This document shows, in pieces, positions 15,600 through 34,496 of a stretch of 52,262 bases of DNA; positions within the stretch are counted from its first letter, which is position 1; every line of letters begins with the position of its first letter. The stretch is from an uncultured Alphaproteobacteria bacterium (GTDB lineage Bacteria; Pseudomonadota; Alphaproteobacteria; HIMB59; GCA-002718135): assembly GCA_902619045.1 (NCBI GenBank), contig CACNCX010000002.1, positions 1 through 52,262 of the forward strand, written 5' to 3'. The notes under the pieces were generated by a model, which saw only the letters and a list, made by a program, of their open reading frames with translations, had not been told where the DNA came from and ran no database searches. The position numbers and the translations under genes were made by a program.

Positions 15600-15610
15600 A
15601 TTATAATCAT

Positions 15611-16024: not shown

Positions 16025-16412
16025 TTGGAAAAAACCAACAGTACAAATGTTAGGTAGATGGCAACCATGGCATGACGGACATACAGAATTATTTAAAAGA
16101 GCACTTCAGAAAACAGGTCAGGTATGTATTATGTATCGTGATGTGGGAGGTGTAGATGCAGGTGTAGAAGGTCAAGCTGACAATCCATTTCAATTTGAAG
16201 AAGTAAAAGCAAAAATTAATGAAGGTTTAGCTCAACATGGTTTTACTGATGGCAAAGAATATGTAGTTGTAAAGGTCCCAAACATTATTGATATTTCTTA
16301 TGGAAGAGGAGTTGGTTATTCCTTTACAGAACATGATTTAGGAAAAGAAATACATGATATCTCGGCAACAAAAATTAGAAATGAAATGAGAGTTAAAGGG
16401 GAATTAAAATAA
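16017..16412 (+). CDS. cytidylyltransferase-superfamily nucleotidyltransferase, NadM/NMNAT-like
   Basis: 131 aa with an 8-nt overlap onto the kinase. It has the (H/T)xGH motif GRWQPWHDGH, a central DNPF, and a C-terminal ISATKIRNEM. Together these match the archaeal-type NMN adenylyltransferase pattern GRFQPFHxGH / ENPF / SGTxIR. Confidence 0.62.
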   Translation: MFDWKKPTVQMLGRWQPWHDGHTELFKRALQKTGQVCIMYRDVGGVDAGVEGQADNPFQFEEVKAKINEGLAQHGFTDGKEYVVVKVPNIIDISYGRGVGYSFTEHDLGKEIHDISATKIRNEMRVKGELK

Positions 16413-16413
16413 A

Positions 16414-17733
16414 CTAAATTTTTTCTCCTGCTGGTTTTCCATATCCAACATTTTTTTTCCCATATCTTCTCACTCTAACGTTACATTGTTCAGCGTGACC
16501 GATAAATCCTTCAAGGTGTGAAAGTCTAGATCCATATTCTCCAATAAGTGTAGCTGCTTCATCGGTTGTAATCTTTTGATAAGTGTGGGTTTTAATAAAC
16601 TTACCAACCCACAAACCACCAGTATATCTTCCAGCTTTTTTAGTAGGAAGAGTATGGTTTGTGCCTATGACTTTATCGCCATTAGCAACATTAGTTCTAG
16701 CGCCCAAAAATAGAGCTCCATAAGATGTCATATTTTCTAAAAACCAATCATCTTTTATTGTCATAACTTGAACGTGCTCTGATGCTATTTCATTTGCTTT
16801 AGATAACATCTCTTCATAGGTATCACATAAAACTATTTCTCCATAATCTCTCCAGCTAGTACTTGCTGTTTCTTTAGTAGGTAAGATTTCTAAAATTCTA
16901 TCAATTTCTTTAAATGTTTCTTCTGCAAGTTTTCTTGAGTTTGTTATCATGACAGCAGGAGAATTATACCCATGTTCTGCTTGTCCTAATAAGTCTGTTG
17001 CACATATTTCACCATCAACTGTTTCATCTGCTATAACCATTGTTTCAGTTGGACCAGCAAATAAATCGATACCAACTTTGCCATACAATTGTCTTTTTGC
17101 TTCAGCAACGAATGCATTGCCAGGTCCAACAAGCATATCAACATGTTTAATAGTTTCTGTACCAATTGCCATCGCACCAACTCCTTGCATTCCTCCCAAA
17201 ACATAAATTTCGTGAGCACCACCCATTTTCATTGCTGTAACGACAGCTGGATTTGGCTTACCTTTAAAGGGTGGGGTAGTAGCAACAATTCTTGGAACTC
17301 CAGCAACTGAGGCAGTAACAACTGACATATGAGCAGAAGCTACCATTGGGAATTTTCCAGCAGGTACATAACATCCTACTGCTTGTACTGGTATATTTTT
17401 ATGACCAAGAATTACACCTGGATGCGTTTCTACTTCTAATTCACTTAAAGTTTTAAGTTGTGCTTCTGCAAAAGACCTTACTTGTTTTTGAGCAAATTTA
17501 ATATCTTCTTTGTCTTCGTCAGAGACTTCACTCATTAATTGATTTATTTGATCTTCACTTAATCGAAAACTATCTGGTGAATAGTTATCAAATTTTTGTG
17601 ATAATTCTCTAACATATTTATCACCTTCTGATTCAATTTTACTTAATGTTTCCTCAACAATTTTTTTTACTTTATCATTATCTTCAATTCTTTGTTTTTC
17701 GTCTAAACCTTTTTTTAAATATTCAATTGCCAT
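16414..17733 (-). CDS. histidinol-dehydrogenase-family NAD-dependent dehydrogenase (HpsN-like candidate, not biosynthetic hisD context)
   Basis: 439 aa with GPGNAFVAEAKRQLYGKVGIDLFAGPTE and GQAEHG motifs of the HisD fold. There are no other his genes nearby and the neighbours are catabolic. The N-terminus MAIEYLKKG resembles HisD paralogues such as sulfopropanediol 3-dehydrogenase (from recall). Confidence 0.75.
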   Translation of the reverse strand: MAIEYLKKGLDEKQRIEDNDKVKKIVEETLSKIESEGDKYVRELSQKFDNYSPDSFRLSEDQINQLMSEVSDEDKEDIKFAQKQVRSFAEAQLKTLSELEVETHPGVILGHKNIPVQAVGCYVPAGKFPMVASAHMSVVTASVAGVPRIVATTPPFKGKPNPAVVTAMKMGGAHEIYVLGGMQGVGAMAIGTETIKHVDMLVGPGNAFVAEAKRQLYGKVGIDLFAGPTETMVIADETVDGEICATDLLGQAEHGYNSPAVMITNSRKLAEETFKEIDRILEILPTKETASTSWRDYGEIVLCDTYEEMLSKANEIASEHVQVMTIKDDWFLENMTSYGALFLGARTNVANGDKVIGTNHTLPTKKAGRYTGGLWVGKFIKTHTYQKITTDEAATLIGEYGSRLSHLEGFIGHAEQCNVRVRRYGKKNVGYGKPAGEKI

Positions 17734-17735
17734 AA

Positions 17736-18833
17736 TTATTTTTTATGAATTAATTTAAAGATATCAACACCTATTTGATCTAGTATATGTGCTATATCGA
17801 TTGGTACCCAATTTTCTCTAATTAGCCCTTCATGATGTAAATAAAAATCCATAACTCTTATTGTAATTTTTTTATTAGTTGGCTCATAACCTAACCATTC
17901 TTTTGAACCATGAATGCATTCTATGCTATGCCAACCTCCAGTCATTGAATAATTACCATCACCAATTTCAATATAATGTCCAATTTTCCAATAATCCCTT
18001 TCTTTAAATGTAAGTCTAAATGGAAGTTGATGATATTCTACATATCCTTTTAAACCTCTTGCAGTTCCTATTCCTGCAGGTCCGTGCCACATCATTTTTG
18101 GATGCCAATATTTTTTTTGAGGATGATTAAGTAATTTATCTCTTATATAATCTTTGTTTGAGTTTGGATCACTTTCGGGCTTAATATTTAAACTTCGCTG
18201 CATGGTTAATGATTGATTTAAAGATTCTAAAGATAATTCGTTGTCAAAATTTTCATTATTTTCTCCATCTCCAGTAATAGGCGCTGACCACATACCTTCT
18301 GCTCCTAAAGATTTATTAATTGGCCAGTGTCCAGCTTGTCTAATAAAATCAACTGTATCAATTAAAACATATGATTTTATAATTTTACCATTAGAGATTT
18401 GATGAGCTTCGCAAGTTCTAAGATAAATATTTTTTTTTGTGGGTGTAACACCGAGCCATTCGTTGACAAATGTTCCAGTTAGATAGCTAACAAACGATAC
18501 AAATACTTTGTCTCTATAAGATCCTCCAATTACAATTATATTTCTTCTTTCGAGATCTGGAAAAGCTTCTTTTAGAGGTATCCAAAGTTTATTTTTTATA
18601 TTCTCAACACCACTTATTTCATTTATTGGATGAAAAGCATTTAATTCAGCTTCTTCATGGTATAAGTTTTTTAAATTAACTCCTAATTCATCTAAAGGAG
18701 ATTCAGCAACTTTATTTAATAAATATTTAAATTTTTTTTTATTTTCTAAATTTTCACTTGTACTTAAATCTACAAAAATTATTTTCTTGTTTTCTTTTTC
18801 CCCTGTTTCAAAATCTTCAATTTTATTTGTCAT
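17736..18833 (-). CDS. tandem NTF2-like (SnoaL/ester-cyclase-like) protein, paralogue 1
   Basis: 365 aa. It shares the blocks KYWHPKMMWHGPAGIGTARG and LIRENWVPIDIAHILDQIGVDIF with ORF 28015..29088. The PDLERR...TGT...G..PT.K...GKI pattern is typical of SnoaL-like domains. Confidence 0.6.
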   Translation of the reverse strand: MTNKIEDFETGEKENKKIIFVDLSTSENLENKKKFKYLLNKVAESPLDELGVNLKNLYHEEAELNAFHPINEISGVENIKNKLWIPLKEAFPDLERRNIIVIGGSYRDKVFVSFVSYLTGTFVNEWLGVTPTKKNIYLRTCEAHQISNGKIIKSYVLIDTVDFIRQAGHWPINKSLGAEGMWSAPITGDGENNENFDNELSLESLNQSLTMQRSLNIKPESDPNSNKDYIRDKLLNHPQKKYWHPKMMWHGPAGIGTARGLKGYVEYHQLPFRLTFKERDYWKIGHYIEIGDGNYSMTGGWHSIECIHGSKEWLGYEPTNKKITIRVMDFYLHHEGLIRENWVPIDIAHILDQIGVDIFKLIHKK

Positions 18834-18869
18834 AAAAATTATTTACATACTAATAAATATTAATTGATT

Positions 18870-18895
18870 TATTCAATAATTTGAATAATATTCAA
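18870..18895. promoter_or_regulatory. triple half-site array with the same TTGAATA/TATTCAA motif, candidate operator
   Basis: TATTCAA-taat-TTGAATA-a-TATTCAA, in the 89-nt divergent spacer between 17736..18833(-) and 18923..19894(+). Confidence 0.5.
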
Positions 18896-18922
18896 AAAAA
18901 ATGAATAAAATATCATAAAGAT

Positions 18923-19894
18923 ATGTCAATTAATATTACTACAAGATTAGCAAAATTTGAGGAACTTATTCCAAGTACTATTCCTTTTGTAGAAGGAAAA
19001 TTAAAGGGACATCAAGATAGGAAAAATTATTCTGTTATAGGCCCAGGTGTTAGTGAAGATGCTAAACAAAATGTTAAAATAGCTGAAGCGCATGGCTTCA
19101 ATATTGGAGCTGTAAGTGCCGCTCCAATGAACGGTTCTGGATTACATAGCCATACAACTGCTGAAGTATTTATAATTCATTCTGGTGCTTGGCGTTTCTA
19201 TTGGGGAGTTGATGGCACAGAAGGAGAGGTAATACTTAGAAAAGGTGATATTGCTTCTTTCCCTACAAATATGTTTAGAGGTTTTCAAAATGTAAGCAAA
19301 GAAGAAGCGTTAATGTTTGTAGTTTTAGGTGAAAATGATCCAGGTGTAATCACTTGGACTCCAAAACTTTTAAAAGATGCAAAAGATTCTGGTATGGTAT
19401 TAATGAATGATAATTCTTTAGTAGATACAGAAAAACAGAAAATTACTGATGAAACTAAAATTATTCAACCATTAAAAGAAGATGAATTAAAGAGTTTTGA
19501 TCATTATTCCTCAGAAGATATAGAAAACTTTGTCATTCGATTTGATGAAAAAGATAAATACTTTGTTGATGATGAACACTATCAATCCAATAAAATTATC
19601 AATTACCTTGATCAATTTAATATTCATAATAAATCATTTATTCCAAACATACCGCATTTAACAGGATTTAGCCTTTCACTTCTGCATGGAAAAAATGCCC
19701 ATATACATGAATACAAATTTGAGAAATCAGAAGTATATCATTGTTTATCTGGTGAATGGGAAATAGATTGTGATGGAGAGAAAGTAGTAATTAAGGACAA
19801 GGATACTTTTTCAGTACCAAAAAACTCATCACGATCAATTAAGCAGATAAGTGATGAGGATGGAAATTTATTTATTATAAGACAAACAAATTAA
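18923..19894 (+). CDS. bicupin-domain protein (putative metalloenzyme)
   Basis: 323 aa. The first cupin motif is GSGLHSHTTAEVFIIHSGAWRF...GDIASFP. The second, degenerate cupin is HGKNAHIHEYKFEKSEVYHCLSGEWEI...DTFSVP. Confidence 0.7.
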   Translation: MSINITTRLAKFEELIPSTIPFVEGKLKGHQDRKNYSVIGPGVSEDAKQNVKIAEAHGFNIGAVSAAPMNGSGLHSHTTAEVFIIHSGAWRFYWGVDGTEGEVILRKGDIASFPTNMFRGFQNVSKEEALMFVVLGENDPGVITWTPKLLKDAKDSGMVLMNDNSLVDTEKQKITDETKIIQPLKEDELKSFDHYSSEDIENFVIRFDEKDKYFVDDEHYQSNKIINYLDQFNIHNKSFIPNIPHLTGFSLSLLHGKNAHIHEYKFEKSEVYHCLSGEWEIDCDGEKVVIKDKDTFSVPKNSSRSIKQISDEDGNLFIIRQTN

Positions 19895-19906
19895 GAATTC
19901 AGTTAT

Positions 19907-20881
19907 ATGAAAGGTTTTAATAACAAGTTTGAAAATCTTCCAGATTATATTCTAAAAATAACTCATCAGATATGGGAAGAAAAAGATGTTAACTCAATTA
20001 TGGAATATTATGCTGAAAATATTCCTGTTAGATCACCTATGGGAATCATTTATGGACCTAATACAGTAGTTGATGCAACTAATGCAACTTTAGACGAATT
20101 TCCAGATAGGCAATTATTAGGTGAAGATGTAATTTGGATTGGTAACGAAGATGAAGGGTTTTTATCTTCTCATAGAATTCTTAGTAAAGCCACTCATGTA
20201 AAAGATGGTTTATATGGTAAAGCAACAAATAAAAAACTTGTATACAGAGTCATTGCTGACTGCGCTTGTAAGAATAATCAAGTTTATGATGAATGGTTAG
20301 TTAGAGATCAAGGCGCAATTGTTAGACAGCTAGAAATAGATCCAAAAAAATATGCAGCAATTTTAATAAAGCAAGAAGGTGGAATAAAGAATTGCATTAA
20401 ACCATTTGATAAGAATTCATCTCAAGAATCAAGTTATACACCACCAATTTTATCAAAAAATAATATAGCTGATCAATATGCAGAAAATTTAGAAAACATT
20501 CTTAATATTAATTTTAAATCTACAATTGAAAAAAATTATGACAGATCAGTTCAACAATTTCAACCAGGAGGTTTTGTTTGTTATGGTATCGATGATGTAA
20601 CAAATTTCTGGCTAAATTTAAGACAATCTTTCCCAGATGCTCTTTTTAGAATAGAACATAAAAGTTTTACTGTAGAAGAAAATCAACCAAAAAAAGTTGC
20701 TATACGCTGGTCTTTAGTTGGGAAGCACAGTGGGAATGGTATATTTGGGCAAGCTTCTAATTCTGAGATTTATATTATGGGAATTAATCATGCCGAAATA
20801 GGACCAAGAGGTATAAAGAACGAATGGGTTTTATTTGATGAAACTGCAATTTGGAAACAAATCTTGATAAAAACAGGTTAA
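19907..20881 (+). CDS. tandem NTF2-like (SnoaL/ester-cyclase-like) protein, distinct subfamily
   Basis: 324 aa. The N-terminal half has ITHQIWEEKDVNSIMEYYAENIPVRSPMG...QVYDEWLVRD and the C-terminal half has YDRSVQQFQPGG...IRWSLVGKHSGNGIFG...NEWVLFDE. Both halves have SnoaL-like signatures. Confidence 0.6.
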   Translation: MKGFNNKFENLPDYILKITHQIWEEKDVNSIMEYYAENIPVRSPMGIIYGPNTVVDATNATLDEFPDRQLLGEDVIWIGNEDEGFLSSHRILSKATHVKDGLYGKATNKKLVYRVIADCACKNNQVYDEWLVRDQGAIVRQLEIDPKKYAAILIKQEGGIKNCIKPFDKNSSQESSYTPPILSKNNIADQYAENLENILNINFKSTIEKNYDRSVQQFQPGGFVCYGIDDVTNFWLNLRQSFPDALFRIEHKSFTVEENQPKKVAIRWSLVGKHSGNGIFGQASNSEIYIMGINHAEIGPRGIKNEWVLFDETAIWKQILIKTG

Positions 20882-20888
20882 TTAAAAA

Positions 20889-22016
20889 ATGTCTAAAATA
20901 TTAACTACACATGTAGGCAGCTTGCCTAGATCAAAAGGTCTTTCAGAAATTTTATTTTCTAAAGATCGGGGTGAAAAATTTATTAAAGAAGATTTTAATA
21001 ATATATTGAAAAAAAATGTTGAGACAATTGTTAAAAAACAGATCGAAGTTGGTATTGATTATATAAGTGACGGTGAAATGAGTAAAATAAGTTATGCAAC
21101 TTATATAAAAGATAGGATAGATGGTTTTTCTGGAGAAAGTGAAAGAAGAGCACCAGCTGATTTAGATGATTTTCCAGAGTATAAAGAAAAAATAGCTAAA
21201 AGTGGGGGTACACCAACGTATAGCAGACCGTGTTGTACTAATGCATTAAAAATCAAAGATAAAGATTCATTAAATAAAGACTTAGAGAATTTTAAAAATT
21301 CATTAGATAAAAACAATCATCAAAAAGCATTTATGAATGCTGCATCACCAGGTGTCATAAATGTATTTATGCCAAATAGGTTTTATAAAACAGATGATGA
21401 ATATTTACATAAACTTTCAGAAATTATGGCTATTGAGTATGAGACAATTACTAAATCAAATATACAAGTGCAATTAGATTGTCCTGATCTTGCATTAGCT
21501 AGACATATGAATTTTAAGGAATTATCTGAACAAGAATTTTTAAAACGTGCGGAAATTCAAATTGAGTGTTTGAATGAAGCTTTAACTAATGTAGATGTTA
21601 ATATGACTAGAATGCATATTTGTTGGGGAAACTATGAAGGACCTCATACACATGATATCCCACTAGAAAAAATATTACCAATAATTTTAAAATCTAAAAT
21701 TAAATATTTTTTAATTGAGTCATCAAATCCCAGACACGCACATGAGTGGAAAGTTTTTCAAGATATTAAATTACCAAAAGATAAAGTTTTAGTTCCTGGT
21801 GTTATCGATTCAACATCAAATTTTGTTGAGCACCCTGAGGTTGTAGCAGATAGATTAATTCAGTTTTCAACGGTAATTCCAAAAGATCAACTAATGGCTG
21901 GAACTGATTGCGGATTTAGTACTTTTGCAGGATTTGGCAAAATTGATGAAAATATTTGTTATGAAAAACTTCATTCTTTAGTTGAAGGAACTAAATTAGC
22001 AAACAAAGTTATATAA
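20889..22016 (+). CDS. cobalamin-independent methionine-synthase-like (MetE C-terminal domain/COG0620) protein
   Basis: 375 aa with N-terminal TTHVGSLPRS and putative Zn ligands in HICWGNY and GTDCGFS, as in the MetE catalytic domain. Confidence 0.75.
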   Translation: MSKILTTHVGSLPRSKGLSEILFSKDRGEKFIKEDFNNILKKNVETIVKKQIEVGIDYISDGEMSKISYATYIKDRIDGFSGESERRAPADLDDFPEYKEKIAKSGGTPTYSRPCCTNALKIKDKDSLNKDLENFKNSLDKNNHQKAFMNAASPGVINVFMPNRFYKTDDEYLHKLSEIMAIEYETITKSNIQVQLDCPDLALARHMNFKELSEQEFLKRAEIQIECLNEALTNVDVNMTRMHICWGNYEGPHTHDIPLEKILPIILKSKIKYFLIESSNPRHAHEWKVFQDIKLPKDKVLVPGVIDSTSNFVEHPEVVADRLIQFSTVIPKDQLMAGTDCGFSTFAGFGKIDENICYEKLHSLVEGTKLANKVI

Positions 22017-22017
22017 T

Positions 22018-23016
22018 TTATCTAGATGTTTTTCTTTTTATTAACGTTCCTTGGATTAAATGACTAACGGCCTCATAATCTGGATCTTTAATATTATCAT
22101 TAATAAGTTGAGTTACTAATTTTGACATTTGTCTCAAGGGCTGTTTTACAGTACTTAAATTGTAAGATGACCAGTTTGCCATTGAGATGTCGTCATATCC
22201 AAATATTTCAATATCTTTAGGTATTTCAATTTTTGTATTTTTTTTAATGTAATCTAAACATCCAAATGCCATCGTATCATCTGCACAAAAAATAGCTGAG
22301 ATTTTTTTATTCGTTAAGATTTTTGCTGTTGCAGCATATCCACCTTCATATGTAAAATTTCCTTTTTGAGAGTATAATTTTAATTTTTTTGATTTTTTTA
22401 ATTTATTTTTAAATCCTTTACATCTTTCATTACTTACATAAGACCCTGTGGGACCTTCAATTAAACCAACTTCCTGATGGTTATTTTTGATTATTTGATC
22501 TGCAATTAATTCACCACCAAATCTATGATTACATGCAACTGAACTTATAGTAGGGATATCCCAAGCTCTATTATAGGCTATAATTTGAATCTTTTTATTT
22601 AAGCAATTTTCAACAAATTGATCTGTTGGTTTAGTTGCTGAAATTATTGCAACTAATCTTTCTTTCAAATATGGCTGAATGAGCTTATCGTCTAATTCTT
22701 CACCATCATCAGTTGTTATCAATAAAATTCTAAAACCCGATAAACGTAGCGCTTCATGCAATTCAGTTAATACCTCTGGATAAAATCGATTGGTTATATA
22801 AGGTAAAATAACTCCCACTAGTCCACTATCTTCAATATTTTGAGAATCTTGCAAAAAAGTTTGAGGTTTATATTTTAGTTTTTTGGCAGCTTCAAGAACC
22901 CTTAGTTTTGTCCTGCTTGAGATGCTTGCACCTTTAGTAAAACATCTTGAAACAGCTGATTGAGATACTCCTGCTAATTTTGCGACATCTTGGGATGTGG
23001 CATTTTTATTCATCAT
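22018..23016 (-). CDS. LacI-family transcriptional regulator
   Basis: HTH ATSQDVAKLAGVSQSAVSRCF followed by a periplasmic-binding-protein-like sugar-binding fold. The ORF is open to 23058, but ATG 23016 has an AAGGAA Shine-Dalgarno 5 nt upstream. The 16-bp palindrome at 23043-23058 would otherwise fall inside the coding sequence. Confidence 0.85.
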   Translation of the reverse strand: MMNKNATSQDVAKLAGVSQSAVSRCFTKGASISSRTKLRVLEAAKKLKYKPQTFLQDSQNIEDSGLVGVILPYITNRFYPEVLTELHEALRLSGFRILLITTDDGEELDDKLIQPYLKERLVAIISATKPTDQFVENCLNKKIQIIAYNRAWDIPTISSVACNHRFGGELIADQIIKNNHQEVGLIEGPTGSYVSNERCKGFKNKLKKSKKLKLYSQKGNFTYEGGYAATAKILTNKKISAIFCADDTMAFGCLDYIKKNTKIEIPKDIEIFGYDDISMANWSSYNLSTVKQPLRQMSKLVTQLINDNIKDPDYEAVSHLIQGTLIKRKTSR

Positions 23017-23042
23017 TTTTCCTTTTTTATGTATGCAAATGC

Positions 23043-23058
23043 TTGAATAATTATTCAA
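23043..23058. promoter_or_regulatory. perfect 16-bp palindrome, candidate LacI-family operator in the lacI/SBP divergent promoter
   Basis: TTGAATAATTATTCAA, flanked by ATGCAA (23033-23038) and TTGCAT (23063-23068). It lies 27 nt upstream of the LacI ATG 23016 and 58 nt upstream of the SBP ATG 23117. Confidence 0.6.
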
Positions 23059-23116
23059 ACTGTTGCATTAATAAAATATTATAAATTAATATATTAATAA
23101 ATTATAGGGGAAACAA

Positions 23117-24331
23117 ATGAAAAAAATACTAGTATTATTTTCGATTTTCACATCATTTTTTTTCTTAGCCGGTACTAATGCAAAAGCTTGCGAGCTAAAC
23201 AATTCTGTACCAGTAACTTCTTTATCTGCAGGATTTGATGCCTGGAAAGTTGTTACTTCTGCTATGGAAGAGTGTGGAAATTTTACACCTACACTTGATC
23301 AAGAATACAGAGATAAGCTTGTTGCATCATTAGAAAGCAACCCATCTCAATTTACAATGGCAGGTGTTTCAGCTTCTACAAATGTATCGGTTCTTGATGC
23401 TGGTGTAACTAGACCACTTGACGATCTAGTTGCTAAATATGGAGACTCTCTACAAGATAATCAAAAAATTGTAATTGATGGAAAAATTATGGCAATTGCA
23501 ATGATGACAAATGCTCAACATTTATTTTACAGAGAAGATATTTTGAGTGATCTTGGTATAGATATTCCAACAACTTATGACGAGCTTTTGAAAGCTGCTA
23601 AAGTTATTAAAGATGCTGGAGTTGTAGATTATCCACTTGGTGGAACATTCAAGTCAGGTTGGAATTTAGGAGAAGAATTTGTAAATATGTATTTGGGTTT
23701 TGCTGATTCTTTTTTTGATGGAAATATGCCAGCAGTTAATAATAACGATGGCTATGAAACACTTAAGATGATGAAAAAACTAACAGAATATATGGATCCT
23801 GAGTATTTAACTTCAGATTCTACATATGTTCAACAACAATTCCAACAGGGTAAGATTGCTCTTGCAAACCTTTGGGCGTCTCGAGCTGGTGCTATGGACA
23901 ATGCAGAGGAGTCAACAGTTGTTGGATTAGTAAAGTTTGCATCAGCGCCTAAAGCAAAAAAGAATGGTAAACCAGCATCTACATTATGGTGGGATGGTGT
24001 TGTTATAGCTAAAAATGTTACTGATGAAGAAGCAGAAGCAGCATTTAAACTAGCTATGGTTGGATTAGATCCAGCAAACTTAGGAGCGAACCCTGAAGCT
24101 GCTCCTTGGCTGTCTAATGCGTTTGATCCAGCTCCATCAAATATTGGTGCAATTTTAACTGCAAAATCTGGAGCAGCTCCTTATCCTGCATCAGCAAAAA
24201 TGAGCACACTCCATGGAGTCTTAGGTGCTGCTATTGGTGATTATTTGACTGGGGCAGCTACTGCAAAAGCTACTCTAGAAAAAATTGAGGCTGATTATAT
24301 TACTGCAGCAACAGAAAAAGGTCTCTTATAA
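23117..24331 (+). CDS. ABC transporter substrate-binding protein, family 1 (CUT1 sugar/polyol type)
   Basis: 404 aa with a signal peptide MKKILVLFSIFTSFFFLAGTNAKA, followed by two CUT1-type permease genes. It has higher GC and Ala/Gly content than its neighbours. Confidence 0.85.
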   Translation: MKKILVLFSIFTSFFFLAGTNAKACELNNSVPVTSLSAGFDAWKVVTSAMEECGNFTPTLDQEYRDKLVASLESNPSQFTMAGVSASTNVSVLDAGVTRPLDDLVAKYGDSLQDNQKIVIDGKIMAIAMMTNAQHLFYREDILSDLGIDIPTTYDELLKAAKVIKDAGVVDYPLGGTFKSGWNLGEEFVNMYLGFADSFFDGNMPAVNNNDGYETLKMMKKLTEYMDPEYLTSDSTYVQQQFQQGKIALANLWASRAGAMDNAEESTVVGLVKFASAPKAKKNGKPASTLWWDGVVIAKNVTDEEAEAAFKLAMVGLDPANLGANPEAAPWLSNAFDPAPSNIGAILTAKSGAAPYPASAKMSTLHGVLGAAIGDYLTGAATAKATLEKIEADYITAATEKGLL

Positions 24332-24348
24332 TTTTATATAATTGTATA

Positions 24349-24380
24349 TTACTCCCCTTTTAAAATCTTAAGGGGGGTAA
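24349..24380 (+). promoter_or_regulatory. intercistronic stem-loop after the SBP gene that includes the permease Shine-Dalgarno
   Basis: TTACTCCCCTT (24349-24359) pairs with AAGGGGGGTAA (24370-24380), giving 11 bp with one G-U and a 10-nt loop. No U-tract follows. The G-rich 3' arm sits 10-20 nt before ATG 24390. Confidence 0.55.
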
Positions 24381-24389
24381 TATTAGTAA

Positions 24390-25409
24390 ATGAAAAAATC
24401 TACTTTTTTAGTTTTTACAATGCCATCATTTATAATGATGACATTATTTATTGCCTTACCTCTTCTAATAGTTTTAATTCAAAGTTTTCAATTCAACCAA
24501 GATGTATTAGAAACGATTGAAAGAGAAAATTGCGATCCTTTTGGATGTAAAACAGAAACAATTACCGTTCCTGTATTAGATGAAAATGGAAATAAAATAA
24601 AAAATAATATTTGGGTAGGCTTTCAAAATTATAAAAATATTTTGAAATTTGAACAATTATCATCTGTTATTTCAAATGATGGTTTTGAATGGAGTAAAAT
24701 AAGATCTATTGATTTTTATAAAGCTCTAAGGTTTACACTAACATTTACATTTATTACTTTACCATTTGTAATAATCTTAGGTTTAATATTAGCTCTATGC
24801 GTTAATGTTTTAATTAATAGATTGAAAGGTCCAATAATTTTTATAACCTTGCTCCCATTTATAATTACACCTGTAATAGGTGCTTTATCAATAAAATGGT
24901 TATTTATAGGAGATGGTATATTAACTTTATTTTTAGAAAATATTTTAGATAAAGATATTGCCCTATTTTCTCAAGGCTGGACGATAGAGATTCTAATGCT
25001 TTTTTATAGAGTTTGGCACACTATACCTTTTGCCTTTGTTATTTTTTATGCAGGACTACAAACTGTCGATAAAGAAAAAATTGAGGCAGCATTTGTAGAT
25101 GGGGCAAATAGACTTCAGCGTTTAAGATTTATTATAATTCCGCATATCATGCCATTAATAGTATTTGTTGCTTTAATTCATTTAATGGATTCATATCGAG
25201 TTTTTGATGAAATTGTTGGTTTTAGTGCTTCTGGATTTAGGATTTCATTACAATGGATGACTTATGATTTCTTGAGAATTGATGATTCTGGAACAAGATC
25301 TATTGGAAGAGCATCAGCTACTTCTGTTCTTACAATGATAGGAATTATAATAATATTAATTCCAGTTTTAAGAAGAACTTTTAAAGAGCAAAAAGAAAAA
25401 AGATTATAA
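24390..25409 (+). CDS. ABC transporter permease (MalF/UgpA-like)
   Basis: 339-aa multi-TM protein with an EAA-loop-like EAAFVDGANRLQRLRFIIIPHIMP. Confidence 0.85.
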   Translation: MKKSTFLVFTMPSFIMMTLFIALPLLIVLIQSFQFNQDVLETIERENCDPFGCKTETITVPVLDENGNKIKNNIWVGFQNYKNILKFEQLSSVISNDGFEWSKIRSIDFYKALRFTLTFTFITLPFVIILGLILALCVNVLINRLKGPIIFITLLPFIITPVIGALSIKWLFIGDGILTLFLENILDKDIALFSQGWTIEILMLFYRVWHTIPFAFVIFYAGLQTVDKEKIEAAFVDGANRLQRLRFIIIPHIMPLIVFVALIHLMDSYRVFDEIVGFSASGFRISLQWMTYDFLRIDDSGTRSIGRASATSVLTMIGIIIILIPVLRRTFKEQKEKRL

Positions 25410-25786
25410 TGGAAAGTAAACTTTTTAACTTAACCACGCCTCTTAAAATTATTGTTTCAATTACAATAATTACGTGGTGTATAATTGCTTTATTCCCTCT
25501 CTTATGGATTGTTGTAATGTCAATAAAACTTCCTGTTGATTCTTTTGCTTCCAATCCTTTAAAGGTAATAATTGGTCCAAGCACAAAAGAACAGGTTGGA
25601 GGTCTATCTTTTGTTAACTTTATTTTTCTTTTTCTATCAATTTTTTTGTTTTATAAATTATACCAAATAAGAAAAATTTTATTTGATTTAATTAATCCTA
25701 TTTTAAAATTTTCTTTAATTACTTTTTTCATTTTATTCATTATATATAACTATTTCCTTCATATTATTTTTTTTAATTCAAAATAA
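25409..25786 (+). CDS. ABC transporter permease (MalG/UgpE-like), N-terminal fragment of a frameshifted gene
   Basis: Shares one nucleotide with the upstream permease gene. ALFPLLWIVVMSIKLP is the typical MalG-type first TM and loop start. The frame ends at TAA 25784-25786 just after a T8 run, and the remainder of the gene continues in another frame (see findings). Confidence 0.6.
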   Translation: MESKLFNLTTPLKIIVSITIITWCIIALFPLLWIVVMSIKLPVDSFASNPLKVIIGPSTKEQVGGLSFVNFIFLFLSIFLFYKLYQIRKILFDLINPILKFSLITFFILFIIYNYFLHIIFFNSK

Positions 25787-25925
25787 TTTATCTGAATTTG
25801 TAAATATATTATTTTCAAATTTAGAATTCTTAAAAATTTTTTCTTACCCAATCATAGGTTTTACTCCTCAGCATTATTTATCTGTTTGGGTTGGTAATGA
25901 ATTTTATAAACAATTCTTAAATACT

Positions 25926-26540
25926 ATGATTGTAACAGGTGGGGTTGTTACAATTTCATTAACTGTTGGAACACTAGCTGGTTATGGATTAGCAAGAAGT
26001 AATTCTATGATTGCCTTTTGGCTTTTAATTTTTGCTTTAATTTTTAGAGCCTTACCTCATTCTGTTTTGGTAACTGGTTATTTAGAACCTTTTATAAATT
26101 ATGGATTATATGGAAAAAAAATTGCTGTTATTGTTTTGTTAGTAGCTATTAACCAACCTTTTACAATATGGATGCTGAGATCATTTTTTATGAATATACC
26201 TCAAGATTTAGATGAAGCTGCTCAAATTGATGGATGTAATCCTTTTCAAGCTTTCTGGAAAGTTGTGATGCCTTTAATGTGGCCAGGTGTAATTACAACA
26301 GGATTATTTTCTTTCTTGTTAGCTTATAATGATTATCTTGTTGCAGCATTATTATTAGATGGACAATCACAAACTATGGTTCCAGCAATTATGCAATATT
26401 TTAATATGGAAACTAAAATGACAGATTTAGTTGAGTCAATTGCTGCTGCTGCATCAATTACCGCACCATTGTTTTTGTTAGTGATGTTTTTCCAAAAACA
26501 AATAGTGTCTGGTTTAACTCAAGGTGCAGTAAAGGGTTAA
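25926..26540 (+). CDS. ABC transporter permease (MalG/UgpE-like), C-terminal fragment
   Basis: EAA loop DLDEAAQIDGCNPFQAFWKVVMP. The frame is actually open from 25719 and encodes the conserved FTPQHY...F.NT segment upstream of the listed ATG, so this is not an independent gene. Confidence 0.7.
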   Translation: MIVTGGVVTISLTVGTLAGYGLARSNSMIAFWLLIFALIFRALPHSVLVTGYLEPFINYGLYGKKIAVIVLLVAINQPFTIWMLRSFFMNIPQDLDEAAQIDGCNPFQAFWKVVMPLMWPGVITTGLFSFLLAYNDYLVAALLLDGQSQTMVPAIMQYFNMETKMTDLVESIAAAASITAPLFLLVMFFQKQIVSGLTQGAVKG

Positions 26541-26574
26541 CAATAATATGATAATTATTTATTAAAATTATAAG

Positions 26575-27234
26575 ATGAAATACAAAGCATTACTTTTTGG
26601 ATCAATTGGAACACTGATTGAATCTTCTAATATCCAACGTAATTCATTTAACGAAGCCTTTAAAGAAGCTGGTTTAGATTGGTATTGGGACGAGCAAGAT
26701 TATAGAATTTTATTAAAAAAATCAGGTGGCACTAAGAGAGTAGAAGATTTTGCAGAAAAAAATAACATCAATGTTAATGCATCACAAATTAGAGATAGAA
26801 AAACAGAATTATTTAGTTCATTCATTATTCAAAACAAACAAAAATTAAGAGAAAGTGTTTATGAAATGATTAGATATACTAAAGATAATAATATTAAACT
26901 TGCATTCTCAACTTCTACAACTGTAAATAATGTAGAAGCTGTATTTGAAAGTCTTTCTAATCAAATTTCAAAAGCGGATTTTGATTTTATTGGAAATAGA
27001 TCATTTGTTAACAATGAAAAACCTCATCCAGAGATATATAAAGTAACACTAGAAAAATTAAATTTAAAACCTGAAGAATGTCTTGCAATTGAAGATACAG
27101 AGGAAAGTAGTAATGCCGCTGTTAATGCAAGTGTTAAATGTATTGCATTTCCAGGTGATTTTCACAAAGAAGATAAATTTGATATGTGCATCAAAAAAAT
27201 GAATTTATTAGATCAAACCATTTTTTCATTGTAA
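26575..27234 (+). CDS. HAD-superfamily (subfamily IA-like) protein lacking the canonical motif-I aspartates
   Basis: 219 aa with a cap-domain pattern and C-terminal motifs (STST; KPHPEIY; AIEDTEESSNAAVNASVKCIAF). Motif I reads LLFGSIGTL instead of hhhDxDGT. Confidence 0.65.
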   Translation: MKYKALLFGSIGTLIESSNIQRNSFNEAFKEAGLDWYWDEQDYRILLKKSGGTKRVEDFAEKNNINVNASQIRDRKTELFSSFIIQNKQKLRESVYEMIRYTKDNNIKLAFSTSTTVNNVEAVFESLSNQISKADFDFIGNRSFVNNEKPHPEIYKVTLEKLNLKPEECLAIEDTEESSNAAVNASVKCIAFPGDFHKEDKFDMCIKKMNLLDQTIFSL

Positions 27235-27247
27235 ATTATACGCATAA

Positions 27248-28015
27248 ATGTTTCTAAAAAAATTCGAAGTAAAAGATAAGACTGCACTTGTTACAGGTGC
27301 AGGAAAAGGGATTGGTAAAGCATCTGCAATCGCACTGGCAGAAGCTGGAGCAAATTTAATAATTATAAGTAGAACAGAAAAAGATCTTATAGCTGTTAAA
27401 AACCAAATTAAAAAAATTAAAAGAAAATGCAACTACTTTGTTTGTGATGTAACAAATTTAAAAGAAATAAAAAAAATATTTTCTAAAATTCCAAAATTAG
27501 ACATATTAGTAAATAACGCTGGAACAAATAGGCCAGAATATTTTACTAAAATTAAAAGAAAAGATATGAGTGAAGTGGTTGATCTTAATATTAAAGCATC
27601 ATTTGATATTGCTCAATTAGCAACAAAAATTATGCTAAAATCAACAAATAGAAAAAAAAGTGGTGGATCAATTATAAATATTTCATCTCAGTTAGGTAAA
27701 GTTGGAGCTCCTCTTAGAAGTGTTTACAATATGACCAAGTTTGGCGTTGAAGGTCTAACTAAAGGAATGGCTATCGATTTAGCAAAACACAACATTAGAG
27801 TTAATTCAGTTTGCCCTACATTTGTTGAAACTCCTATGGTTAAAAAATTTTTCAAAGATAAAAATTTTAAAAAATCTGTTATTGAAAATATACCTTTAGG
27901 AAAAGTAGCAACAGAAAGTGATATTGCTAGTGCAGTAGTGTATCTTGCTTCTGATGCTGCATCGATGATAACTGGCTCTTCATTAGTAATTGATGGAGGA
28001 TGGACTGCTAAATAA
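27248..28015 (+). CDS. short-chain dehydrogenase/reductase (SDR) family oxidoreductase
   Basis: TGAGKGIGKA cofactor motif, NNAG, catalytic S...YNMTKFG (YxxxK), and PG-like motif CPTFVETP. Confidence 0.9.
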   Translation: MFLKKFEVKDKTALVTGAGKGIGKASAIALAEAGANLIIISRTEKDLIAVKNQIKKIKRKCNYFVCDVTNLKEIKKIFSKIPKLDILVNNAGTNRPEYFTKIKRKDMSEVVDLNIKASFDIAQLATKIMLKSTNRKKSGGSIINISSQLGKVGAPLRSVYNMTKFGVEGLTKGMAIDLAKHNIRVNSVCPTFVETPMVKKFFKDKNFKKSVIENIPLGKVATESDIASAVVYLASDAASMITGSSLVIDGGWTAK

Positions 28016-29088
28016 TGATTTCTAGAGAATTAAAAAATTTTTTTGCCAACTATCAGATTGCAACTCAAACATTTAACAAAAAGACAATTGAAAAATCATT
28101 AAGCAATTATTTTACAAAAGAATCTTTATTTAATTTTTGCCATCCTTTTGGAACTTTTAAAGGTTTAAATAATTTTCTTTCTAAATGTATTTTGCCATTA
28201 TTGGATAGTATCCCTGATCTAGAAAGAAGAGATATGATTATTATGGCGGGAAAAACCCCTGAAGGGCAAAAATGGATAGGTACAATGGGAAATTATATGG
28301 GAACTTTTATAAAACCATACTTAGATATTCCACCAACAGGAAATTTAATTCATATGCGCTATCATGAGTTTTTTAAAATAGAGGAAAATAAAATTACTGA
28401 AGTACAATCTATTTGGGACTTACCTGAAATTATGATGCAAGCAAATGCATGGCCAATGTCTCCTCAACTTGGTGCATTTCTTTGTACCCCAGCTCCTATG
28501 ACTGGAGATGGCTTGTCAATAAATGGAGAAAAGAAAGAAAATTTTGATCATGTTATAGATATGTTAAATGATTTATCCTTACATCCTAAAAATCCTGATC
28601 CAAAAATTATGAATCTAGAAAAATATTGGCACCCAAATCTTAATTGGTACGGACCAGCCGGAATTGGTACAGGTAGAGGTATAGCAGGTTTCAGACATTG
28701 GCATCAAATCCCATTTTTAAGAGCAATGCCAGATAGAAAAGGTGGTTCATCAAATGAAAAATTAGCCACCGATGGCATGGAAGATTTGCAAACACACTGG
28801 ATACATGAAGGAAATTATGTGTGTGAAACAGGTTGGCCTAATATGAGATTAACAATAACCAATGATGGCTGGATGGGTATTGCTCCATCAAATCAAGCAC
28901 TAGAAATGAGAAGTCTAGATTTCTGGAGGCTAGAAAATGGTTTGATTAGAGAAAATTGGGTCTTAATTGATTTACTTGATATTTATAGACAAATTGGAAT
29001 CAATATATTTGACAGAATTAAAGAGTTTAATAAAGCTCGTCAAACAGGACATATCAATTTATCTGATGGATTAGATGTTTTAAAGTAG
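28015..29088 (+). CDS. tandem NTF2-like (SnoaL/ester-cyclase-like) protein, paralogue 2
   Basis: 357 aa sharing one nucleotide with the SDR gene. The blocks KYWHPNLNWYGPAGIGTGRG and LIRENWVLIDLLDIYRQIGINIF are shared with ORF 17736..18833. Confidence 0.6.
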   Translation: MISRELKNFFANYQIATQTFNKKTIEKSLSNYFTKESLFNFCHPFGTFKGLNNFLSKCILPLLDSIPDLERRDMIIMAGKTPEGQKWIGTMGNYMGTFIKPYLDIPPTGNLIHMRYHEFFKIEENKITEVQSIWDLPEIMMQANAWPMSPQLGAFLCTPAPMTGDGLSINGEKKENFDHVIDMLNDLSLHPKNPDPKIMNLEKYWHPNLNWYGPAGIGTGRGIAGFRHWHQIPFLRAMPDRKGGSSNEKLATDGMEDLQTHWIHEGNYVCETGWPNMRLTITNDGWMGIAPSNQALEMRSLDFWRLENGLIRENWVLIDLLDIYRQIGINIFDRIKEFNKARQTGHINLSDGLDVLK

Positions 29089-30869: not shown

Positions 30870-30911
30870 ATTTGTTATTCTCTCTATACCACTGCTACAA
30901 TTTTTCCTATG

Positions 30912-30937: not shown

Positions 30938-30987
30938 TCTTTGATTTATCGATAATTTCATATACTCAATCTCTATTAAGGAAAAAT

Positions 30988-34489: not shown

Positions 34490-34496
34490 AAGTTAA

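What the first reader, a model, noticed from the sequence alone, without database searches (positions are those of the whole stretch)
16414..29088. LacI-controlled cluster of enzymes with no assignable pathway
The cluster forms two divergent units around a LacI gene. The first unit has a HisD-family 4-electron alcohol-to-acid dehydrogenase, a tandem-NTF2 protein, a bicupin, a second tandem-NTF2 protein and a MetE-like Zn protein. The second unit has a CUT1 SBP plus two permeases, an Asp-less HAD protein, an SDR and a third tandem-NTF2 protein. I do not know a described catabolic pathway that combines these families. There is no kinase, aldolase, glycoside hydrolase or dehydratase that would mark an ordinary sugar route. 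The mix suggests stepwise oxidation, ring or ester chemistry, and methyl or thiol transfer on a small polar osmolyte-like substrate.
Basis: inference. Interest (0 to 1): 0.65.

Follow-up and report, generated by a model that had tools for sequence, protein, structure and literature searches.

The report
Orphan SAR11 nutrient-uptake and oxidation gene cluster
This is a real, conserved and actively transcribed gene cluster in an abundant ocean bacterium that imports and oxidises a still-unidentified small organic compound; its key enzyme is a relative of a known sulfonate-degrading enzyme with a rebuilt substrate pocket.

Summary
There are three corrections. The cluster has four transcription units, not two. 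The second permease is broken by a frame change. The LacI gene starts at 23016, not 23058.

The cluster is not a chance adjacency. The same gene set recurs in 48 SAR11-type loci and in Rhodobacterales, Hyphomicrobiales, Burkholderiales, Gammaproteobacteria, a Chitinophagaceae MAG and an Anaerolineae MAG. In Pseudahrensia it forms one co-directional operon. Near-identical cDNA contigs cover it in four marine metatranscriptomes, and the binding-protein gene has by far the highest contig depth.

The "HisD" belongs to the HpsN clade (DHPS 3-dehydrogenase) and keeps every zinc and catalytic residue. Its sulfonate-binding signature G-R-Y-A-H reads G-K-F-P-M. This variant is a separate clade, 63-75% identical across phyla. 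The layout of LacI, transporter, HpsN-like enzyme and SDR parallels the known hpsR-hpsKLM-hpsN-hpsO system.

I found no characterised operon or paper covering this cluster. My best reading is a sibling of the DHPS system, for a different substrate carrying a terminal 1,2-diol or 2-amino-alcohol. The substrate is not identified.

The parts
16414..17733 (-). HisD/HpsN-family Zn/NAD+ four-electron alcohol dehydrogenase, 'type A' (motif G-K-F-P-M in place of the HpsN signature G-R-Y-A-H)
   Evidence: Pfam PF00815, E 9e-133. It scores 398 bits against solved C. pinatubonensis HpsN and 255 bits against the best true HisD. The identity matrix is. cDNA contigs cover it.
17736..18833 (-). Tandem NTF2-like (SnoaL) protein 1, co-transcribed with the dehydrogenase
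   Evidence: Pfam SnoaL in 2 stretches. The family has 825 clusters at 50% identity with E<=1e-3. A cDNA contig spans the 17733/17736 junction.
18871..18895 (.). Overlapping palindromes ATTCAATAATTTGAAT and TTGAATAATATTCAA in the divergent intergenic region; candidate LacI operator
   Evidence: The same palindrome sits at the equivalent position in L002, L005, L006, L008, L010 and L014. An X25 cDNA contig ends at 18893 next to a template-switch adaptor.
18923..19894 (+). Bicupin; the N-terminal cupin keeps a His-His-Glu metal site and an invariant Arg, while the C-terminal cupin is degenerate
   Evidence: Pfam Cupin_2 x2. Alignment A3. AF2 pLDDT 73.5. Foldseek matches generic bicupins at TM about 0.5.
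19907..20881 (+). Tandem NTF2-like (SnoaL) protein 2
   Evidence: Pfam. It is 21% identical to SnoaL1. cDNA contigs span both gene junctions.
20889..22016 (+). MetE-like, catalytic-domain-only Zn protein (His243-x-Cys245 and Cys341 invariant; D-G-E and Q-L-D motifs kept)
   Evidence: Pfam Meth_synt_2 at 49.5 bits. NCBIfam scores are far below the methionine-synthase cut-offs. Alignment A5. At least 8000 close relatives occur in marine metagenomes.
22018..23016 (-). LacI-family regulator (true start ATG 23016)
   Evidence: Pfam LacI HTH plus Peripla_BP. N-terminal translation. Orthologues are 333-336 aa.
23043..23058 (.). Perfect 16-bp palindrome TTGAATAATTATTCAA between LacI and the SBP gene; candidate operator
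   Evidence: It is one of only two TTGAAT-N(1-5)-ATTCAA sites in the window; the shuffle mean is 0.2.
23117..24331 (+). CUT1-type periplasmic solute-binding protein (transporter 'type 1')
   Evidence: Pfam SBP_bac_1. It has only distant PDB relatives. Its cDNA contig depth is 80-425, the highest of the cluster. It is 82% identical to L010, 51-56% to Hyphomicrobiales SBPs and 40% to L001.
24390..25409 (+). ABC permease 1
   Evidence: Pfam BPD_transp_1.
25409..26540 (+). ABC permease 2, interrupted by a frame change between about 25637 and 25778
   Evidence: The L010 orthologue is an intact 377 aa.
26575..27234 (+). HAD-fold protein without the catalytic Asp pair (LFGSIGT)
   Evidence: Pfam HAD_2. 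The motif is conserved in all SAR11 homologues. No homologue appears in the non-SAR11 clusters.
27248..28015 (+). Classical SDR oxidoreductase
   Evidence: Pfam adh_short. PDB relatives are generic. In non-SAR11 clusters it sits next to the HpsN-like gene.
28015..29088 (+). Tandem NTF2-like (SnoaL) protein 3, a 36%-identical paralogue of SnoaL1; present or absent in natural variants
   Evidence: Pfam. Alignment A1. An X25 contig joins 28016 to 29090.

Best explanation
The region is a substrate-inducible uptake-and-oxidation regulon for a hydroxylated small molecule that has not been identified. It is an evolutionary sibling of the LacI-regulated DHPS (hps) system, but it serves a different substrate.

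**Proposed steps**
1. A LacI-family repressor binds TTGAATA..TATTCAA palindromes in the two divergent promoter regions. (Inferred.)
2. A CUT1 ABC importer takes up the compound. Its binding protein is very highly represented among transcripts in the sea. (Family and transcription shown; ligand unknown.)
3. A Zn/NAD+ dehydrogenase of the HpsN clade oxidises a terminal -CH(OH or NH2)-CH2OH group to the carboxylate in two hydride transfers.
   - The fold and all catalytic residues are shown.
   - The sulfonate-binding His and neighbouring polar residues are replaced by Met, Val and Ile. The distal group of the substrate is therefore probably not a sulfonate or an imidazole.
4. The SDR oxidises or epimerises a secondary alcohol. 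(Inferred by analogy with HpsO.)
5. The three tandem NTF2-like proteins carry out enolisation-dependent steps such as isomerisation, dehydration or elimination, or retro-aldol or decarboxylation reactions. (Inferred from what the fold family does.)
6. The conserved three-gene module SnoaL2, bicupin and MetE-like protein finishes the job.
   - It would use a mononuclear metal centre and a Zn-thiolate alkyl or methyl transfer.
   - (Inferred from conserved ligands.)

In other taxa a pyruvate-type aldolase follows, which suggests the carbon ends up as pyruvate plus a second fragment.
For: **Gene families and coordinates:**

**HpsN-clade membership**
- The dehydrogenase scores 398 bits against solved HpsN and 255 bits against true HisD.
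- It is 48% identical to CpHpsN.
- Gln248, His251, Glu318, His319, Asp352, Lys353, His359 and His411 are all conserved.
- A125P, H126M, Y131H, T354V and S355I are fixed in 29 type-A sequences.
- His126 is the residue reported to distinguish HpsN from HisD by binding the sulfonate (PMC11382572).

**Conserved synteny**
- 45-48 of 48 SAR11-type loci carry the HisD-family gene, SnoaL1, bicupin, SnoaL2 and the MetE-like gene.
- Of 12 non-SAR11 loci with full flanks, 9 carry the type-A dehydrogenase, 10 the SDR and 10 the ABC genes.
- Complete operons occur in Pseudosulfitobacter, Pseudahrensia, Boseongicola and an unnamed 4.45-Mb genome.
- Transport modules are swapped for a TonB receptor or for SusD plus SSF in a Gammaproteobacterial MAG and a Chitinophagaceae MAG, while the enzyme genes are kept.

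**Operator candidates:**

**Transcription and operon structure:** cDNA contigs at >=99% identity span the gene junctions. SBP contig depth is 80-425, against 5-30 for the enzyme genes.

**Architectural parallel:** the R. pomeroyi cluster hpsR(LacI)-hpsKLM-hpsN-hpsO (PMC4334477).

**Aldolases in other taxa:**
Against: - No ligand, activity or effector was measured, so every chemical step beyond family assignment is inference.
- A SAR11 HpsN homologue assayed in the literature (CuHpsN) does turn over R-DHPS, although with a Km of 106 mM (PMC11131964). I could not establish which of the three SAR11 variants it is.
- In this window the second permease is frameshifted and no ATPase gene is present, so this particular copy may not import anything.
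- LacI is absent from the Pelagibacter Ia versions of the cluster, so LacI control is not universal.
- The accessory genes differ between taxa (RidA, M19 peptidase, PNPOx-like protein, alpha/beta hydrolase, GMC oxidoreductase). The substrate may therefore not be the same everywhere.
Confidence: 0.55

Rival explanations
1. It is a DHPS (or other C3-sulfonate) utilisation cluster. The CUT1 ABC system is an alternative DHPS importer. The HisD-like enzyme is a bona fide HpsN making sulfolactate. The SDR acts like HpsO or a sulfolactate dehydrogenase. The product is funnelled to sulfoacetaldehyde and then to the flanking Xsc and Pta.
For: - The dehydrogenase is closest to solved HpsN, and JGI names relatives 'sulfopropanediol 3-dehydrogenase'.
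- Xsc (1026 bits against a 620-bit cut-off), a Pta-like gene, an omega-aminotransferase and Ald bracket the cluster in this genome.
- In Pelagibacter Ia the same cluster lies next to a canonical G-R-Y-A-H HpsN and pta.
- The layout parallels the hps cluster.
- SAR11 is reported to catabolise DHPS (PMC11131964).
Against: - The sulfonate-binding His126 and neighbouring polar residues are replaced by hydrophobic ones throughout the type-A clade.
- Type A is a clade separate from canonical HpsN, 46-50% against 56-71% identity.
- No xsc, pta, suyAB, slcD, comDE or cuyA homologue was seen near the cluster in any of the 32 non-SAR11 loci.
- This reading leaves the three NTF2-like proteins, the bicupin, the MetE-like protein and the aldolases without a role.
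Confidence: 0.15
2. It is a non-phosphorylative polyol or sugar route. An alditol or ketose is imported and its terminal CH2OH is oxidised to the aldonic or 2-keto acid. It is then dehydrated or isomerised by NTF2-like enzymes and split by an aldolase encoded elsewhere in SAR11.
For: - It has a CUT1 SBP and a LacI regulator.
- The nearest solved SBPs are sugar or polyol binders: 5iai at E 1e-12, the sorbitol SBP 4rya, and SmoF.
- HpcH/HpaI aldolase occurs in 6 non-SAR11 loci, and Amidohydro_2 (a lactonase-type family) in L061.
- SusD and a sodium:solute symporter (SSF family) accompany the cluster in the Chitinophagaceae locus.
Against: - SBP similarity is remote (<=50 bits) and gives no specificity.
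- Known aldonate dehydratases are not NTF2-like.
- This reading gives no role to the MetE-like Zn protein or the bicupin.
- No aldolase or lactonase lies in the SAR11 cluster.
Confidence: 0.12
3. The genes are not one functional unit. Separate small operons (for example a methionine-related MetE-like module and an unrelated sugar transporter) are merely packed together in a streamlined genome.
For: - There are four transcription units.
- The transporter module has been exchanged between close relatives: SBP 40% identical against 76-96% for the enzymes.
- SnoaL copies are gained and lost.
- LacI is absent in Pelagibacter Ia.
Against: - The same families stay together across phyla with very different genome sizes, and in Pseudahrensia they form a single co-directional operon.
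- The two divergent promoter regions share a palindrome.
Confidence: 0.06

Closest known systems
DHPS catabolic (hps) cluster: hpsR (LacI) - hpsKLM (TRAP) - hpsN - hpsO - hpsP of Ruegeria pomeroyi and Cupriavidus pinatubonensis
   Same: - A LacI-family regulator, a binding-protein-dependent importer, an HpsN-clade four-electron dehydrogenase and an adjacent SDR.
- All zinc and catalytic residues of HpsN are conserved.
   Different: - ABC (CUT1) transport instead of TRAP.
- No MDR-type HpsP, and no sulfolyase in the cluster.
- The signature G-R-Y-A/S-H, with the sulfonate-binding His126, reads G-K-F-P-M.
- Three tandem NTF2-like proteins, a bicupin, a MetE-like protein and an Asp-less HAD are added.
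Histidinol dehydrogenase HisD
   Same: The same fold and mechanism class. The protein scores above the TIGR00069 cut-off (430 against 244 bits). Like HisD, it has Pro and a hydrophobic residue at the last two motif positions.
   Different: It is much closer to HpsN than to any solved HisD (398 against 255 bits). It has no histidine-biosynthesis context and sits in a catabolic operon with a transporter.
Cobalamin-independent methionine synthase MetE and the 'core' MetE-like single-domain proteins
   Same: The catalytic-domain fold. The His-x-Cys and C-terminal Cys zinc ligands are kept, as are the G-S-x-P-R, D-G-E and Q-x-D motifs.
   Different: - It has no N-terminal folate-binding domain.
- It scores 107 bits against a cut-off of 406 for the nearest NCBIfam model.
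- It is 24% identical to the second MetE-like gene of the same window.
- It is always adjacent to a bicupin and a tandem SnoaL protein.
SnoaL / NTF2-like enzymes (polyketide cyclases, scytalone dehydratase, ketosteroid isomerase, limonene epoxide hydrolase)
   Same: Pfam SnoaL and SnoaL_2 hits. A conserved Asp...Gln pair lies near the C-terminal end of each half.
   Different: - These are tandem two-domain proteins of 324-365 aa.
- They have no solved relative better than E 0.02.
- There are three to six copies per cluster.
- They sit in a catabolic transporter-linked context, not a polyketide one.
Sulfoquinovose monooxygenase (SMO) cluster transporter SmoF
   Same: A CUT1 SBP distantly similar to SmoF (E 1e-9).
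   Different: The similarity is only remote, and none of the SMO enzymes is present.

Membership tests
HpsN (DHPS 3-dehydrogenase) | PF00815 fold, closer to solved HpsN than to HisD | tested here: met
   398 bits against 8v35, 255 bits against the best HisD.
HpsN (DHPS 3-dehydrogenase) | Zinc ligands and catalytic Glu318, His319 and Asp352; Lys353 | tested here: met
   All are invariant in 29 type-A sequences.
HpsN (DHPS 3-dehydrogenase) | Signature motif G-R-Y-A/S-H with the sulfonate-binding His126 (PMC11382572) | tested here: not met
   G-K-F-P-M in the window. G-K/R-F/Y-P-M/L/I throughout the clade.
HpsN (DHPS 3-dehydrogenase) | Neighbourhood with hpsO and hpsP and a sulfolactate-degrading route | tested here: inconclusive
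   An SDR is adjacent in many taxa, but there is no MDR-type hpsP. Xsc and pta flank the cluster only in SAR11 and are absent from the 32 non-SAR11 loci.
HpsN (DHPS 3-dehydrogenase) | Efficient NAD+-dependent oxidation of R-DHPS to sulfolactate | not testable with these tools
   This needs an enzyme assay. A literature SAR11 homologue of undetermined type has a Km of 106 mM.
HisD (histidinol dehydrogenase) | Motif G-S-A-P-L and a histidine-biosynthesis context | tested here: not met
   The motif is G-K-F-P-M and the context is a catabolic operon.
LacI-family repressor | N-terminal HTH plus a periplasmic-binding-protein-like effector domain | tested here: met
   PF00356 plus PF13377, PF00532 and PF13407.
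LacI-family repressor | Palindromic operator in the controlled promoters | tested here: inconclusive
   Candidate palindromes lie at 18881-18895 and 23043-23058 and are conserved in six loci. No binding data exist.
CUT1 ABC importer | SBP_bac_1 protein, two intact BPD_transp_1 permeases and a MalK-type ATPase | tested here: not met
   The SBP and permease 1 are intact. Permease 2 is frameshifted. No ATPase gene is in the cluster, though homologous clusters have one.
HAD phosphatase / beta-phosphoglucomutase | Motif I DxDx(T/V) with the nucleophilic Asp | tested here: not met
   LFGSIGT, conserved in all SAR11 homologues.
MetE methionine synthase | Two-domain protein scoring above the curated cut-off | tested here: not met
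   It is 375 aa with the catalytic domain only, and scores 107 bits against 406.
MetE methionine synthase | Zn site His-x-Cys...Cys and amino-acid-binding motifs | tested here: met
   H243, C245, C341, the D61-G62-E63 motif and D197 are invariant.
Bicupin metalloenzymes | Two cupin barrels with a metal triad or tetrad | tested here: met
   Foldseek E 1e-14 to OxdC and quercetinase. H75, H77 and E81 are invariant in the N-terminal barrel only.

The most novel reading that the evidence does not exclude
The cluster encodes the first genetically defined catabolic route for a major but pathway-orphan class of algal or cyanobacterial metabolites. In this route tandem NTF2-like proteins replace conventional dehydratases and isomerases. 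A MetE-like enzyme harvests a methyl or alkyl group onto a thiol, and may make methionine.

One chemically fitting candidate class is the methoxylated C7 cyclitols: gadusol, 4-deoxygadusol and the mycosporine-like amino acids.
- They carry a -C(OH)(CH2OH)- group, which would suit the HpsN-like enzyme.
- They carry an O-methyl group, which would suit the MetE-like protein.
- They carry a cyclic enone or enaminone, which would suit the NTF2-like proteins, the bicupin, and the RidA found in some taxa.

Another candidate class is DHPS-like 'glyceryl-X' compounds.
Probability: 0.08. Interest if true: 0.85.

Novelty: new variant of a known kind. Interest (0 to 1): 0.62.

Why it matters

In this cluster the binding-protein gene has by far the highest cDNA contig depth in four marine metatranscriptomes. 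The cluster therefore points to a dissolved organic compound that is taken up in the sea but has not been named.

Identifying the compound would do three things:
- It would add a flux term to marine carbon budgets, and possibly to sulfur or methyl budgets.
- It would define a third specificity class in the HisD/HpsN dehydrogenase family. Members of this class are currently annotated as histidinol dehydrogenase or as DHPS dehydrogenase, which inflates hpsN-based estimates of DHPS turnover.
- It would assign the first functions to a family of tandem NTF2-like proteins and to an Asp-less HAD.

Cultured carriers make the question directly testable. They include Ahrensia sp. R2A130, Pseudahrensia aquimaris, Pseudosulfitobacter sp. 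SM2401, Boseongicola aestuarii, Microvirga pudoricolor and Psychromarinibacter sediminicola.

Tried and rejected
**Things that led nowhere**
- **Literature.** No paper held SnoaL together with dihydroxypropanesulfonate, with histidinol dehydrogenase, cupin and LacI, or with ABC transporter and catabolism. A mycosporine/gadusol query also returned nothing. SnoaL with Pelagibacter gave one unrelated paper. SAR11 with 'polyketide cyclase' gave only incidental mentions.
- **Solved structures.**
  - The tandem SnoaL proteins and the bicupin have no informative sequence relatives.
  - The SDR matches only generic FabG-like enzymes.
  - The SBP has only remote matches.
- **SAR11_0769.** I tested whether the Pelagibacter Ia-type SBP of this cluster is the characterised glucose/galactose binder SAR11_0769 (8HQQ). 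It is not.
- **Bicupin fold search.** It confirmed the fold only and gave no functional assignment.
- **SnoaL1 structure prediction.** With only the three window paralogues as the alignment it failed (pLDDT 42.8), so I did not use it.
- **RNA elements.** No Rfam family and no tRNA lies in the window, so no SAM or other riboswitch precedes the MetE-like operon.
- **Permease frameshift.** I tried to resolve it with metagenome and metatranscriptome contigs. The AT-rich stretch 25596-25881 is not covered.
- **Accessory genes.**
  - The flanking GMC oxidoreductase is only 31% identical to the GMC gene inside the L088 operon, so orthology is not supported.
  - The 219-aa ORF in the Boseongicola cluster is unrelated to the SAR11 HAD.

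**Rejected readings**
- True histidine-biosynthetic HisD.
- A phosphatase function for the HAD.
- A genuine methionine synthase for the MetE-like gene.

Full report
**1. What is in the sequence**

The window has about 29% G+C. Its closest relatives are single-cell genomes labelled uncultured Alphaproteobacteria. Pelagibacter isolates carry more distant copies of the same cluster. I read this as a SAR11-type lineage outside Pelagibacter subclade Ia.

| Coordinates | Strand | Assignment |
|---|---|---|
| 16414-17733 | - | HisD-family dehydrogenase |
| 17736-18833 | - | tandem SnoaL/NTF2-like protein (SnoaL1) |
| 18923-19894 | + | two-cupin protein |
| 19907-20881 | + | tandem SnoaL/NTF2-like protein (SnoaL2) |
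| 20889-22016 | + | Meth_synt_2 (MetE-like) protein |
| 22018-23016 | - | LacI regulator |
| 23117-24331 | + | SBP_bac_1 binding protein |
| 24390-25409 | + | BPD_transp_1 permease 1 |
| 25409-26540 | + | BPD_transp_1 permease 2 |
| 26575-27234 | + | HAD-fold protein |
| 27248-28015 | + | SDR |
| 28015-29088 | + | tandem SnoaL/NTF2-like protein (SnoaL3) |

Four corrections apply.
- There are four transcription units: HisD-like plus SnoaL1 (minus strand); bicupin, SnoaL2 and MetE-like (plus strand); LacI (minus strand); and SBP through SnoaL3 (plus strand).
- LacI starts at ATG 23016.
- Permease 2 is split over two reading frames. It is 2 nt short of the intact 377-aa orthologue in L010.
- No ABC ATPase gene is present, although homologous clusters encode one.

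**2. More than chance**

Conservation inside SAR11:
- The MetE-like protein alone has at least 8000 close relatives in marine metagenomes.
- Contigs carrying it show the same neighbours.
- A genome-collection scan with an alignment of SnoaL1 relatives returned 80 loci.
- By tblastn, 45-48 of the 48 SAR11-type loci carry the HisD-family gene, SnoaL1, bicupin, SnoaL2 and the MetE-like gene together.

Conservation outside SAR11:
- The set recurs in Paracoccus, Hoeflea, Psychromarinibacter, Ahrensia, Microvirga, other Hyphomicrobiales, Comamonadaceae, Hydrogenophaga, Rhodoferax, Gammaproteobacterial MAGs, a sponge symbiont, a Chitinophagaceae MAG and an Anaerolineae MAG.
- Pfam-annotated neighbourhoods give complete operons in Pseudosulfitobacter, Pseudahrensia, Boseongicola and an unnamed 4.45-Mb genome.
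- In Pseudahrensia the order is LacI, SBP, permease, permease, ATPase, SnoaL, HisD-like, SnoaL, SDR, SnoaL, PNPOx-like, bicupin, MetE-like, all on one strand.

The transport module is interchangeable while the enzymes are kept:
- A TonB-dependent receptor takes its place in a Gammaproteobacterial MAG, and SusD plus a sodium:solute symporter (SSF family) in the Chitinophagaceae MAG.
- Two paralogous ABC types occur. The window's SBP is 82% identical to L010 and 51-56% identical to Hyphomicrobiales SBPs.
- It is only 40% identical to the SBP of its near relative L001, whose enzymes are 76-96% identical.

**3. Regulation and expression**

The pattern TTGAAT-N(1-5)-ATTCAA occurs only twice in the 52 kb window; base shuffles give a mean of 0.2.
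- One site is at 18881-18895, between SnoaL1 and the bicupin.
- The other is at 23043-23058, between LacI and the SBP gene.
- The same palindrome sits in the SnoaL1/bicupin intergenic region of L002, L005, L006, L008, L010 and L014.

This supports LacI control as an inference. The Pelagibacter Ia versions of the cluster have no LacI within 10 kb.

Four marine metatranscriptomes contain contigs at >=99% identity over the whole cluster.
- Several contigs span gene junctions at 17733/17736, 19894/19907 and 20881/20889.
- One contig ends at 18893 next to a template-switch adaptor.
- SBP contigs have depth 80-425, against about 5-30 for the enzyme genes.
- Contig depth is a crude measure, and DNA carry-over cannot be excluded.

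**4. The dehydrogenase**

It is far closer to solved C. pinatubonensis HpsN (398 bits) than to any HisD (255 bits or less). It is 48% identical to CpHpsN.

The published structure work defines a signature G-R-Y-A/S-H. Its His126 binds the sulfonate and distinguishes HpsN from HisD, where the motif is G-S-A-P-L (PMC11382572). The window protein reads G-K-F-P-M.

Across all loci I found three variants of the HisD-family gene next to this cluster:

| Type | Motif | Where found |
|---|---|---|
| A | G-K/R-F/Y-P-M/L/I | the window's lineage and every non-SAR11 cluster |
| B1 | G-R-Y-A-H (canonical) | many Pelagibacter Ia loci |
| B2 | G-R-Y-N-N | other SAR11 loci |

- Type A is a tight clade, 63-75% identical across phyla. 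It is 46-50% identical to CpHpsN, B1 and B2, which are 56-71% identical to one another.
- All zinc and catalytic residues are invariant in type A. A125P, H126M, Y131H, T354V, S355I, E345R, Q107H and R413E are fixed differences.
- The chemistry is therefore conserved, but the pocket that holds the sulfonate has become hydrophobic.
- A SAR11 'HpsN' assayed in the literature had a Km of 106 mM for R-DHPS and 16 mM for histidinol (PMC11131964). I could not determine which variant that protein is.
- The published HpsN survey analysed only homologues with hpsO and hpsP nearby. Type A has probably not been examined.

**5. The other proteins**

- **MetE-like protein.** It keeps His243-x-Cys245, Cys341 and the D-G-E and Q-L-D motifs in every homologue. 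It scores far below the methionine-synthase cut-offs. It is only 24% identical to a second MetE-like gene at 33440-34489.
- **Bicupin.** Its N-terminal barrel has an invariant His75, His77, Glu81 and Arg119, and its C-terminal barrel is degenerate. Foldseek gives only generic bicupin matches.
- **SnoaL2, bicupin and MetE-like gene.** They form a conserved three-gene module.
- **HAD-fold protein.** It has LFGSIGT in place of DxDGT in all 35 SAR11 homologues. It is absent from the non-SAR11 clusters. It is a conserved non-phosphatase.
- **Tandem SnoaL proteins.** They have no solved relatives. Their family comprises 825 clusters at 50% identity.
- **Accessory genes elsewhere.**
  - HpcH/HpaI aldolase in 6 loci.
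  - One locus each: RraA-like aldolase, Amidohydro_2, RidA, M19 peptidase, a PNPOx-like protein and GMC oxidoreductase.
  - Alpha/beta hydrolase in three loci.

**6. Comparison with known systems**

The closest known system is the DHPS cluster of Ruegeria pomeroyi. It is also built of a LacI regulator (HpsR), a binding-protein-dependent transporter, HpsN and an SDR (HpsO) (PMC4334477). The present cluster looks like a sibling of that system with a different substrate.

In this genome the cluster sits between xsc and a block holding a pta-like gene, an omega-aminotransferase and ald. That keeps a sulfonate reading alive. No such genes flank the cluster outside SAR11.

**7. Verdict**

My best explanation (confidence 0.55) is a LacI-type-regulated ABC uptake and oxidative catabolism of an unidentified compound with a terminal 1,2-diol or 2-amino-alcohol. 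The route begins with a new specificity class of HpsN-like dehydrogenase. NTF2-like, bicupin and MetE-like enzymes supply the downstream chemistry.

- Shown: the family assignments, conservation, transcription and pocket remodelling.
- Inferred: the order and nature of the chemical steps.

Noticed in passing
window 25409-26540: The second ABC permease is split by a frame change. It is net 2 nt short of the intact 377-aa L010 orthologue, and the switch lies between about 25637 and 25778 in an AT-rich homopolymer stretch. This permease type also carries an insert of about 85 aa, apparently hydrophobic, compared with the 293-aa type in L001. It could be a sequencing error or a recent pseudogene.
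   Followed up: partly
window 28015-29088: One contig in metatranscriptome X25 joins 28016 directly to 29090, with 7 other bases in between. Natural variants therefore exist that lack the third tandem SnoaL gene.
   Followed up: no
L001 11129-13808: A near relative (enzymes 76-96% identical) carries three extra SnoaL-family genes between the MetE-like gene and LacI. The window has none there. Copy number of NTF2-like genes in the cluster varies from 3 to 6.
   Followed up: no
window 23117-26540 versus L001 14971-18184: The whole transporter module has been exchanged between close relatives: SBP 40%, permeases 42-54% identical. The window's type is closer to Hyphomicrobiales and Bosea transporters (51-77%). 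DNA metagenome contigs break at 26229/26230, inside the 3' part of permease 2.
   Followed up: partly
window 10413-12182 and 29970-33443: Sulfoacetaldehyde acetyltransferase Xsc lies upstream of the cluster. A Pta-like phosphotransacylase, an AptA-type omega-aminotransferase and alanine dehydrogenase lie downstream. Together they look like a taurine-to-acetyl-CoA route that brackets the cluster.
   Followed up: partly
window 33440-46503: A second possible catabolic block. It holds another single-domain MetE-like gene, a PehA-like sulfatase or phosphoric ester hydrolase, an Opp-type ABC system with a 684-aa SBP_bac_5 protein, two Gfo/Idh/MocA oxidoreductases, an EamA transporter and an aldose 1-epimerase.
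   Followed up: no
window 14808-16412: CysQ (3'(2'),5'-bisphosphate nucleotidase) is followed by two small genes whose ends overlap by 8 nt. One is a 137-aa P-loop, APS-kinase-like protein. The other is a 131-aa cytidylyltransferase-like protein. Both are 99% identical to L001, more conserved than their neighbours.
   Followed up: no
L019-L052 (Pelagibacter Ia loci) and L007, L009, L010, L015: Different SAR11 lineages carry different HisD/HpsN-family variants next to the same cluster: canonical G-R-Y-A-H, or G-R-Y-N-N in place of the window's G-K-F-P-M. The Ia versions lack a LacI gene within 10 kb but include the ABC ATPase.
   Followed up: partly
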